Part shown: positions 6,771 to 13,514 of the stretch, piece by piece
Numbering within the stretch: position 1 is the stretch's first letter
Layout: each line of letters starts with the position of its first letter
NCBI RefSeq assembly: GCF_009914755.1
Contig: NC_060934.1
Length of the DNA: 64,000 nt
From: the human T2T-CHM13v2.0 reference genome, Homo sapiens
Direction: 5' to 3' (one strand)
Made by a program: the position numbers and the translations under genes
The notes under the pieces: model-generated
Database searches by the model: none
What the model saw: the letters and a program-made list of their open reading frames with translations, nothing else
What the model was told of the DNA's origin: nothing

Positions 6771-7615
6771 GGTTTTTGGTTTCTGGGAATTTACAGATTA
6801 GTGGGGAAACTACTTTAACAGCCAAGGGCACAGTAAACAAAAGGGATGCGATAGGGAATGACGCCGGATGCTTGGCTATAACTGGTATTAATAGAGAAAC
6901 TTTGAAACTGTGAAATTTTGATAGCTAAGAGAGATTATAGAAATGGTCTAGTCCACAGGTCTCACGCTTGTCATGGTGGTTTCTACTAGGAGTTTCCAAA
7001 TACATACCAGTGCTAAGGTTGCTGGGAGATGTTAATACAGCTTCATATTACACTGAAACTATTTTTTAATCTATCAGTTTCCATCTCCAGCCCTGCTGCC
7101 ATCCCTATTCATCTGTACAGATCCCTATGTGAGATTTCATCAATGCACTTTCCCAGGCGCATTGCATTTGTGCATGCATACATCACCCTCCATTAAAATG
7201 ATCACTGAATCACAAAAATTCTTTATGGCGTCTTGATGGCCGAATAGGAACAGCTCCGGTCTACAGCTCCGGTCTACAGCTCCCAGCGTGAGCGACGCAG
7301 AAGACGGGTGATTTCTGCATTTCCAGCTGAGCTTTGAAGAGAGCAGTGGTTCTCCCAGCACGCAGCTGGAGATCTGAGAACGGGCAGACTGCCTCCTCAA
7401 GTGGGTCCCTGACCCCTGACCCCCGAGCAGCCTAACTGGGAGGCACCCCCCAGCAGGGGCACACTGACACCTCACACAGCAGGGTATTCCAACAGACCTG
7501 CAGCTGAGGGTCCTGTCTGTTAGAAGGAAAACTAACAAACAGAAAGGACATCCACACCAAAAACCCATCTGTACATCACCATCATCAAAGACCAAAAGTA
7601 GATAAAACCACAAAG

Positions 7616-8632
7616 ATGAGGAAAAAACAGAAAAGAAAAACTGGAAACTCTAAAAAGCAGAGTGCCTCTCCTCCTCCAAAGGAACGCAGTTCCTCACCAG
7701 CAACGGGACAAAGCTGGATGAAGAATGACTTTGATGAGCTGAGAGAAGAAGGCGTCAGACGATCAAATTACTCTGAGCTACGGGAGGACATTCAAACCAA
7801 AGGCAAAGAAGTTGAAAACTTTGAAAAAAATTTAGAAGAATGTATAACTAGAATAACTAATACAGAGAAGTGCTTAAAGGAGCTGATGGAGCTGAAAACC
7901 AAGGCTCGAGAACTACGTGAAGAATGCAGAAGCCTCAGGAGCCGATGCGATCAACTGGAAGAAAGGGTATCAGCAATGGAAGATGAAATGAATGAAATGA
8001 AGTGAGAAGGGAAGTTTAGAGAAAAAGGAATAAAAAGAAATGAGCAAAGCCTCCAAGAAATATGGGACTGTGTGAAAAGACCAAATCTACGTCTGATTGG
8101 TGTACCTGAAAGTGATGGGGAGGATGGAACCAAGTTGGAAAACACTCTGCAGGATATTATCCAGGAGAACTTCCCCAATCTAGCAAGGCAGGCCAACGTT
8201 CAGATTCAGGAAATACAGAGAACGCCACAAAGATACTCCTCGAGAAGAGCAACTCCAAGACACATAATTGTCAGATTCACCAAAGTTGAAATGAAGGAAA
8301 AAATGTTAAGGGCAGCCAGAGAGAAAGGTCGGGTTACTCTCAAAGGGAAGCCCATCAGACTAACAGCGGATCTCTCGGCAGAAACCCTACAAGCCAGAAG
8401 AGAGTGGGGGCCAATATTCAACATTCTTAAAGAAAAGAATTTTCAACCCAGAATTTCATATCCAGCCAAACTAAGCTTCATAAGTGAAGGAGAAATAAAA
8501 TACTTTACAGACAAGCAAATGCTGAGAGATTTTGTCACCACCAGGCCTGCCTTACAAGAGCTCCTGAAGGAAGCACTAAACATGGAAAGGAACAACCGGT
8601 ACCAGCCGCTGCAAAATCATGCCAAAATGTAA
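7616..8632 (+). pseudogene. L1 ORF1p (338-codon span) with one premature stop
   Basis: ORFs 7616..8005 and 8072..8632 share a frame; TGA at 8003-8005 where the consensus has CGA (CpG decay). Confidence 0.93.
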
Positions 8633-8695
8633 AGACCATCAAGACTAGGAAGAAACTGCATCAACTAACGAGCAAAATCACCAGCTAACATCATC

Positions 8696-12521
<3,826 letters not shown>

Positions 12522-13514
12522 ACAATGAGATCACATGGACACAGGAAGGGGAATATCACACTCTGGGGACTGTGGTGGGGTGGGGGGAGGGGGGAGGGAT
12601 AGCATCGGGAGATATACCTAATGCTAGATGACGAGTTAGTGGGTGCAGCACACCAGCATGGCACATGTATACATATGTAAGTAACCTGCACAATGTGCAC
12701 ATGTACCCTAAAACTTAAAGTATAATAAAGAAAAAAAAAGAAAAAAAAATGATCACTGAATCCCAACCATGAGCTTCCCTCTTGTTCACATTCACCTGTG
12801 CTCACCCTTCCTCCTTGCCTGCTCAGCATGCCCTATCTCTTGCATTCCAACCTTCAACCTGGTATCCACCTTCTCAAATCACCTTCTTGACCTAGCAGCC
12901 TCCCACACACCCCAGAGGGGCCATCATCAGCTCTCTTCATCCGGATCTATTGTTCTGCTTATTCATTGACTTTGCCACCTCAGTATGCAGTCTTTGAGAA
13001 TCAGTACCTTCCATTTTTCATGAACTGTACAATCCGAGAGCATCAAACAATAGTAGCTGTTTACTGAATTACATTTTAAAAATAGTCCAGGATAAATGAT
13101 TTCTGAATTACAATCTTTAGCATTTTTCAGAGGTGCACACTTTATTTTAATTTGCTCCTTCTATCCACATGTCTTAGTTTAATTCTCAACAGTCCACTAA
13201 ACATTTATGCAAGACTCCCCTTCCAACAAATTGAGCATTCATTTTCATATACCTTGTATACATTAAAGGTAGTTTCCTGCTTTCATGCCTTTTAAGCATT
13301 ATAAAGATCGAGTAGAAAGTGGACATCTATGGGATATCCTGACAGTAGACATCTATGGGATATCATAACAGGGTCTGCTCTAGTTCTGCCAAGTTCTAGA
13401 AAACTCCATCATTCTGACTCTCCATTAGTCTTTGGTAACTGGCTCTGCATCTATCAGAAGGCACATGGAGTCTCCCTGATTAAGTTTCTGGGGTCTCTTT
13501 GATGCGTGTGCCTC

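What the first reader, a model, noticed from the sequence alone, without database searches (positions are those of the whole stretch)
7235..7615. L1 with a precisely spliced 5'UTR: a SpIRE(97/622) copy
Seen: the 5'UTR is only ~380 nt instead of ~900 and reads ...gcattttccagctgag|ctttgaagagagcagtgg... with the junction at 7331/7332. Established: the L1 consensus continues CTGAG|GTACCG (donor near +97), and CTTTGAAGAG is preceded by ...TCTGACAG (acceptor near +622). The missing ~520 nt is therefore exactly a GT-AG intron, the class named SpIRE97/622 (Larson et al. 2018). Inference: a spliced L1 mRNA was retrotransposed in cis (TSD and A-tail intact). The copy lacks most of the CpG-rich internal promoter, the antisense promoter and ORF0, so it was probably promoter-crippled from birth. 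The class is known; whether this locus is catalogued I cannot tell.
Basis: partly seen in the sequence, partly recalled or inferred. Interest (0 to 1): 0.8.

Follow-up and report, generated by a model that had tools for sequence, protein, structure and literature searches.

The report
Known spliced L1 copy, SpIRE(97/622)-78
This is an old, dead L1 retrotransposon copy made from an L1 RNA that had lost about 524 bases of its promoter region by splicing, and it is already listed in the published catalogue of such elements, so it is ordinary.

Summary
Window 7235-12745 (+) is an L1PA2-age L1 with a 381-nt 5'UTR. The junction sits at 7331/7332, as reported. Four unspliced L1 copies from the same genome each show one gap of 520-525 nt. 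In 12 of 12 parsed copies the missing segment is bounded by GT...AG. The 30-nt junction occurs 170 times in this genome against 0 for the reversed control. A 17-nt target-site duplication, a TTTT/A nick site and an A-tail show retrotransposition.

Larson et al. 2018 (PMC5860796, S1 Data and S1 Table) list this locus as SpIRE(97/622)-78. Their row reads PA2, hg38 chr10:7137355, 5505 bp, TSD 17, TTTT/A, "5' 23 untemplated".

- The copy lacks the first 14 nt of the element.
- It carries a 13-nt tandem duplication in exon 1.
- ORF1 has an in-frame stop and ORF2 has a 2-nt frameshift.
- It groups with unspliced copies rather than with other SpIREs, and no daughter copies were found.

Interest is low and the novelty rating is "already known".

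The parts
7195..7211 (+). 5' target-site duplication, 17 nt (aaaatgatcactgaatc)
   Evidence: the identical 17-mer recurs at 12746-12762. Larson S1 Table gives TSD 17 and EN site TTTT/A.
7212..7234 (+). 23 extra nt between the TSD and the L1 5' end, origin not found
   Evidence: no other copy in the window at up to 3 mismatches; genome-wide only 2 hits at 2 mismatches against 1 for the reversed control, and neither has informative context. Larson S1 Table: '5' 23 untemplated'.
7235..7331 (+). L1 5'UTR upstream of the splice donor (97 nt). It begins at GATGGCC and so lacks the first 14 nt seen in other copies.
   Evidence: It is 99% identical to the same stretch of the unspliced copy L002.
7251..7276 (+). 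13-nt tandem duplication (cagctccggtcta twice) inside exon 1
   Evidence: a 13-nt gap against L008; the duplication is shared by unspliced copies L002/L022, L003/L023 and L004/L025, and appears in degraded form in L005-L007. It is absent from 9 of 9 other SpIREs read.
7331..7332 (+). Splice junction (donor exon end | acceptor exon start)
   Evidence: The junction occurs at 170 genomic places against 0 for the control.
7332..7615 (+). L1 5'UTR downstream of the acceptor (284 nt)
   Evidence: the same 284-nt length in 10 of 12 parsed unspliced copies.
7616..8632 (+). ORF1, 338 codons, with one in-frame stop at codon 130 (8003-8005)
   Evidence: translation. (Pfam): Tnp_22_trimer, Transposase_22 at 1.8e-64 and Tnp_22_dsRBD at 8.1e-47.
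8633..8695 (+). 63-nt inter-ORF spacer
   Evidence: The 63-bp length matches Larson's Introduction (passage seen).
8696..12521 (+). ORF2. A 2-nt deletion near 8939 shifts the frame and gives a stop at 8945-8947. The rest is open from 8988 to 12521 (1177 codons).
   Evidence: ORF list; this is the only indel seen against all 7 of 7 comparators. (Pfam): Exo_endo_phos, Exo_endo_phos_2 and RVT_1 at 3.9e-47.
12522..12745 (+). 3'UTR and interrupted A-tail
12746..12762 (+). 3' target-site duplication, 17 nt
   Evidence: The reconstructed empty site in Larson S1 Data matches the window flanks.

Best explanation
An L1 transcript of L1PA2 age was spliced within its own 5'UTR. The splice ran from the conserved donor (G98U99 in L1.3 numbering) to the acceptor A620G621 and removed about 524 nt. 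The spliced, polyadenylated RNA was then copied into chromosome 10 by target-primed reverse transcription at a TTTT/A nick. That left a 17-nt target-site duplication, an A-tail, a 5' end 14 nt short of full length, and 23 nt of filler. The copy is the catalogued SpIRE(97/622)-78. It was born without most of the L1 sense-promoter region, including the segment that holds about three quarters of the 5'UTR CpGs and the antisense ORF. It has since acquired an ORF1 stop and an ORF2 frameshift, so it is inert.

Shown here: the structure, the GT...AG bounds, the recurrence of the junction, the retrotransposition hallmarks, the catalogue entry and the broken ORFs. Inferred: that the deletion arose in RNA rather than DNA, that mobilisation was in cis, and that this particular 5'UTR is a weak promoter.
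For: Junction and gap:
- Searches give one gap in 4 of 4 alignments and GT...AG in 12 of 12 parsed unspliced copies.
- The junction occurs 170 times against 0 for the control.

Retrotransposition hallmarks and L1 identity:
- Pfam finds L1 ORF1 and ORF2 domains.
- Identity to full-length L1s is 96.4-98.0% over about 5.39 kb.

Catalogue and published assays:
- The catalogue entry has matching flanks, empty site, TSD 17, TTTT/A and 23 untemplated nt.
- The hg38 start 7137355 corresponds to window 7138, an offset of 217.
- Larson et al. report an RT-PCR experiment designed to detect these intra-5'UTR splice events (section heading and opening lines seen; I did not read its results). They report a 7-fold versus 267-fold promoter assay (section 9 read).

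Independence from other SpIREs:
- In a tree of 29 copies, 15 spliced and 14 unspliced, this copy sits in a set of 7 rows with 97% SH-aLRT support. The other 6 rows in that set are unspliced.
- The spliced state needs at least 4 changes on the tree.
Against: A single copy cannot by itself distinguish RNA splicing from a DNA deletion. The 2-nt AG shared by both ends allows three gap placements and could also serve as microhomology. No ape orthologue could be examined. The promoter weakness was measured on an L1.3-derived construct, not on this 5'UTR, which also differs by a 13-nt duplication, a 14-nt 5' truncation and a G five bases before the donor. The tree sample is biased. The unspliced rows were chosen for similarity to this copy, and only 14 of roughly 170 junction-bearing loci were sampled.
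Confidence: 0.96

Rival explanations
1. A full-length L1 inserted here and later lost about 524 nt of its 5'UTR through a genomic deletion between the two AG dinucleotides.
For: Both gap ends share AG, so a 2-nt microhomology deletion would leave the same sequence.
Against: The same junction is present at 170 places in the genome and the reversed control at none. The 14 other junction-bearing copies I fetched in full include one insertion copied by segmental duplication, but the remainder have different flanks. The ends coincide with GT...AG in 12 of 12 parsed relatives. Both hg38 (Larson S1 Data) and this T2T assembly carry the spliced form.
Confidence: 0.015
2. The splice happened one generation earlier. 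This copy would then be a daughter of a pre-existing SpIRE that was transcribed and retrotransposed, as shown for the RAP1GDS1-intronic SpIRE.
For: Such remobilisation exists. SpIRE-35 gave daughters on chr1 and chr10 (PMC13174262, passages read; re-derived). Only 14 other SpIREs were placed in the tree, so a parent could have been missed or lost.
Against: There is no transduced host sequence at the 5' end. The L1 itself is truncated by 14 nt, and the 23-nt filler matches nothing. This copy groups with 6 unspliced copies, apart from the 14 other SpIREs. Its 13-nt duplication is found in unspliced copies. It is absent from the 9 of 9 other SpIREs read. None of the 39 other scored hits to the 200-nt query aligns across it as a duplication. 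The SpIRE 5'UTR is a weak promoter.
Confidence: 0.04
3. An unspliced insertion was later converted to the spliced form by gene conversion from another SpIRE.
For: None specific. L1 copies can undergo gene conversion, which I state from recall.
Against: The sequences on both sides of the junction carry this copy's own lineage markers: the duplication and the G five bases before the donor. These are absent from the other SpIREs read. Its body also groups with unspliced copies.
Confidence: 0.005

Closest known systems
SpIRE97/622 class (Larson et al. 2018, PLoS Biol, PMC5860796)
   Same: Same donor and acceptor, same roughly 524-nt loss, TSD, A-tail and EN site. This locus is entry SpIRE(97/622)-78 of that catalogue.
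   Different: Nothing that affects class membership. The catalogue row does not mention the 13-nt duplication in exon 1 or the state of the ORFs.
SpIRE97/790 and SpIRE97/976 (Belancio and colleagues, as cited by Larson et al.; section 7 read)
   Same: The same donor, G98U99.
   Different: Their acceptors are at 788/789 or within ORF1 at 974/975. Here the acceptor is the one at 620/621, and ORF1 starts at its normal ATG.
RAP1GDS1-intronic SpIRE-35 and its daughters (Cell Genomics 2026, PMC13174262; passages read)
   Same: An L1PA2-age SpIRE97/622.
   Different: That element sits in a gene intron in sense orientation. It was remobilised through the host promoter and a cryptic acceptor, and gave daughters on chr1 and chr10. 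The copy studied here is intergenic, about 15.7 kb beyond the 3' end of SFMBT2. It carries no host exons, and no daughters were found.
Ordinary full-length L1PA2/L1PA3 copies
   Same: 96.4-98.0% identity over ORF1, ORF2 and the 3'UTR, with the same domain content.
   Different: They keep the 519-525 nt between donor and acceptor.

Membership tests
SpIRE97/622 | L1 of subfamilies PA1-PA6 with a 5'UTR, ORF1 and ORF2 | tested here: met
   Pfam L1 ORF1 and ORF2 domains. 96.4-98.0% identity to full-length L1 copies. Larson's table labels it PA2.
SpIRE97/622 | 5'UTR junction joining the base before G98U99 to the base after A620G621, with a roughly 524-nt loss bounded by GT...AG | tested here: met
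   One gap of 520-525 nt in 4 of 4 alignments. GT...AG in 12 of 12 parsed unspliced copies. The L1.3 numbering is taken from the paper. L1.3 itself was not aligned.
SpIRE97/622 | Hallmarks of target-primed reverse transcription: TSD, 3' A-tract and an EN-type nick site | tested here: met
   A 17-nt TSD at 7195-7211 and 12746-12762, an A-tail, and a TTTT/A site deduced from the empty site.
SpIRE97/622 | Listed in the published catalogue | tested here: met
   Clone 78, SpIRE(97/622)-78, hg38 chr10:7137355-7143069. The flank and junction letters shown in S1 Data match the window. Only about the first 400 letters of the filled site were visible, because the text is cut there.
SpIRE97/622 | The deletion arose in RNA by splicing, not in DNA after insertion | not testable with these tools
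   Indirect support only: recurrence at 170 places against 0 for the control. No ape genome was available for an orthologue check.
SpIRE97/622 | Strongly reduced sense-promoter activity | not testable with these tools
   Published for an L1.3-derived construct, about 7-fold versus about 267-fold. The excised segment holds about 74% of 5'UTR CpGs in relatives.

The most novel reading that the evidence does not exclude
The 23 nt between the TSD and the 14-nt-truncated L1 5' end may not be random filler. They could be the trace of a template switch by the reverse transcriptase onto another, unidentified RNA, which would make this a small L1/RNA chimera of the kind surveyed in PMC13174262. A second possibility is that the 13-nt duplication and the G five bases before the donor mark an L1 sub-lineage with altered donor use.
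Probability: 0.07. Interest if true: 0.2.

Novelty: already known. Interest (0 to 1): 0.07.

Why it matters
It matters little beyond confirming the annotation. The element is one of 116 catalogued SpIRE97/622 copies. These illustrate that splicing of L1 RNA yields promoter-poor, mostly dead-end insertions that standard annotation counts as full-length L1s. This copy adds a clean example that arose from an unspliced lineage independently of other SpIREs. It is intergenic, coding-dead and without detectable progeny, which fits the dead-end view.

Tried and rejected
1. Origin of the 23-nt filler. It has no second copy in the window at up to 3 mismatches. Genome-wide there are two hits at 2 mismatches, both on contig C2 with identical flanks, against one hit for the reversed control. 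Their context is uninformative. I treat these as chance.

2. A SpIRE lineage or a daughter copy. The 200-nt query spanning the duplication and the junction gave 40 scored hits of 434 candidates. None of the 39 non-self hits aligns across the duplication as such, and 9 of 9 fetched lack it.

3. The neighbouring SpIRE-75, 74 kb away and on the opposite strand, as parent or sibling. It is 97.7% identical, no closer than unrelated copies, and it lies in a different well-supported part of the tree.

4. A specially close unspliced progenitor. The best genome-wide hits are 97-98% identical, but only 29 of 18,378 candidates were scored. No near-identical source was seen.

6. The RAP1GDS1 / SpIRE-35 parent-daughter relation looked new when it emerged. 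It is already published.

Full report
WHAT IS THERE

Window 7235-12745 on the + strand is an L1 element. It reads gatggccgaatagg... from 7235 and ...gcatttccagctgag|ctttgaagagagcagtgg across 7331/7332. The ORF1 ATG is at 7616, so the 5'UTR is 381 nt.

A 17-nt direct repeat (aaaatgatcactgaatc) lies at 7195-7211 and again at 12746-12762, just after an interrupted A-tail. The deduced empty site puts the first nick at TTTT/A.

Twenty-three further bases (7212-7234) separate the 5' repeat from the L1. The L1 lacks the 14 nt that other copies carry before GATGGCC.

IS THE GAP A GT-AG INTRON?

The window's own genome could be searched, so I used natural unspliced L1 copies from it as references.

- A 96-nt query of the upstream part (255 candidates, 40 scored) gave loci that continue CTGAG|GTAC in 7 of 7 read.
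- Global alignment of window 7214-7700 to four of them gave one large gap in 4 of 4: 524, 525, 525 and 520 nt.
- The aligner put the gap 2 nt to the left because AG ends both the upstream exon and the intron. One of the three equivalent placements is exactly GT...AG.
- Among 14 unspliced full-length copies fetched later, 13 read GACAG|CTTTGAAG and one reads GATAG|CTTTGAAGG.
- In the 12 of 14 that my anchors parsed (L043 and L044 were not parsed), the segment is 519-525 nt, begins with GT and ends with AG.

IS IT MORE THAN CHANCE?

The 30-nt junction pattern, with one N and up to 2 mismatches, is found 170 times in the genome (90 forward, 80 reverse). The reversed control is found 0 and 0 times. 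Of the 100 rows listed, 54 are exact.

This count is not a count of insertion events. At least one insertion is present several times through segmental duplication. The criteria also differ from the 100-nt BLAT probe that gave 116 in hg38 (Larson et al., section 7). I did not reconcile the two numbers.

IT IS ALREADY CATALOGUED

Searching the supplements of Larson et al. 2018 (PMC5860796) with two short flank strings found [quoted passage not shown]. Its empty-site and filled-site letters match the window as far as the text is shown, which is about the first 400 letters.

The S1 Table row reads PA2, chromosome 10, 7137355, 5505 bp, no gene, TTTT/A, TSD 17, no transduction, "5' 23 untemplated". 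The hg38 start corresponds to window 7138, an offset of 217 from T2T coordinates. Both assemblies therefore carry the spliced form.

WHAT THE SPLICE REMOVED

In the 12 parsed unspliced relatives, the mean CpG counts are 5.5 upstream of the donor, 26.8 in the excised segment and 4.0 downstream. About 74% of 5'UTR CpGs therefore lie in the excised part. The window's 5'UTR has 10 CpGs.

An antisense ORF lies wholly within the excised segment in all 6 copies examined. It is 71 codons in 4 of them and 60 and 102 codons in the other two. I take it to be ORF0, but that name and length are recalled.

The paper reports that the 97/622 splice deletes five transcription-factor sites. A SpIRE97/622 5'UTR gave about 7-fold luciferase activity over a promoterless vector, against about 267-fold for the intact L1.3 5'UTR (section 9). 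That assay did not use this copy.

PRESENT STATE

ORF1 has its full 338 codons but one in-frame stop at codon 130, at 8003-8005. The 63-nt spacer is intact.

ORF2 starts at 8696. A 2-nt deletion near 8939 is the only indel seen against all 7 of 7 comparators. It shifts the frame, and the remainder is open for 1177 codons to 12521. Pfam finds the L1 ORF1 domains and the endonuclease and reverse-transcriptase domains. The copy is coding-dead.

WHERE IT CAME FROM

The upstream exon carries a 13-nt tandem duplication (7251-7276) and a G five bases before the donor.

- The duplication occurs in unspliced L1 copies: L002/L022, L003/L023 and L004/L025, and in degraded form in L005-L007.
- It is absent from the 9 of 9 other SpIREs read. 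Among the 39 non-self hits to a 200-nt query spanning duplication and junction, 38 start after the first repeat unit. The remaining one is 14 nt shorter than the query.
- I built a maximum-likelihood tree of 29 copies over 5391 columns downstream of the junction, with 15 spliced and 14 unspliced rows. L030 was dropped as a partial, more divergent match.
- In that tree this copy sits in a set of 7 rows with 97% SH-aLRT support, and the other 6 rows are unspliced. Within that set it groups with L023 and L025 (81% support), which both carry the duplication and the G. The other 14 SpIREs lie elsewhere, and the spliced state needs at least 4 changes.
- The sample is biased. The unspliced rows were chosen by similarity to this copy, and the SpIREs by similarity of the first 200 nt. 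The tree therefore shows only that this copy does not belong with the sampled SpIREs.
- Its terminal branch is 0.013 substitutions per site. At the 0.17% per million years used in PMC13174262 (methods passage), this suggests roughly 7-8 million years, in keeping with the PA2 label.
- No near-identical source copy was seen, but only 29 of 18,378 candidates were scored.

RIVALS

A DNA deletion at AG microhomology would leave the same letters. It does not explain why the same junction recurs at many unrelated sites with GT...AG ends.

A daughter of an older SpIRE is possible in principle, since such remobilisation is documented for the RAP1GDS1 element. Here there is no transduced sequence, no related SpIRE and a weak promoter.

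Gene conversion has nothing in its favour. The decisive test is the state of the ape orthologues, and these tools could not run it.

VERDICT

The class and this locus are already published.

Noticed in passing
Outside the window: G000 C4:~101635409-101640900 (L016, L031), C1:144.09M, 205.60M and 121.32M (L020, L015/L029, L040), C10:45.36-45.37M (L054, L057): The catalogued SpIRE-35 on chr4 is the parent of other catalogued SpIREs. The copies on chr1 (one insertion, present three times with identical flanks) and chr10 carry two precisely joined chr4 exons 5' of the L1. These exons are joined in turn to the 15 nt that precede SpIRE-35, where an acceptor-like ttttcag sits. The copies also carry about 110 nt of chr4 3' flank, a second A-tail and their own TSDs. 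Larson's table marks entries -6, -35 and -79 as 'Transduction: No', with TSDs that are the parent's TSD carried along. This relation is already published as RAP1GDS1 promoter co-option (PMC13174262, passages read).
   Followed up: yes
Outside the window: G000 C10:~7057600-7063400, minus strand (L028): A second PA2 SpIRE97/622, Larson's SpIRE-75, lies 74 kb upstream on the opposite strand. It has its own flanks and is 97.7% identical to the window copy. It falls in a different well-supported part of the tree. By my own rough arithmetic, with 116 copies in 3.1 Gb a pair this close is not unexpected.
   Followed up: partly
Whole genome: The 30-nt junction pattern with up to 2 mismatches matches 170 places in T2T-CHM13, against 116 SpIRE97/622 catalogued in hg38. 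Segmental duplicates and looser criteria explain part of the excess. Many 1-mismatch rows are an older-looking variant with A before CTGAG and T in GAGAGTAGTGG. I did not check whether any of these places are uncatalogued insertions.
   Followed up: no
L002-L007 (G000 C11:96.42M, C23:124.50M, C19:37.40M, C6:77.32M, C10:50.27M, C4:100.18M): The 13-nt duplication in the first about 40 nt of the L1 5'UTR recurs in unspliced copies that are 90-99% identical to the window's exon 1. L022 carries it but lies in a different part of the tree from L023 and L025. The duplication is therefore either recurrent, by slippage between the flanking CAGCTCC repeats, or an old polymorphism of the lineage.
   Followed up: partly
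L047 and L048 (G000 C1:65.44M, C17:33.83M): Two unspliced L1 copies on different chromosomes are nearly identical, with terminal branches of 0.002 and 100% support. They share the last 7 nt (GATTCAC) before a 5' end that starts at GGAGGAGCC. This could be a short 5' transduction or a duplication.
   Followed up: no
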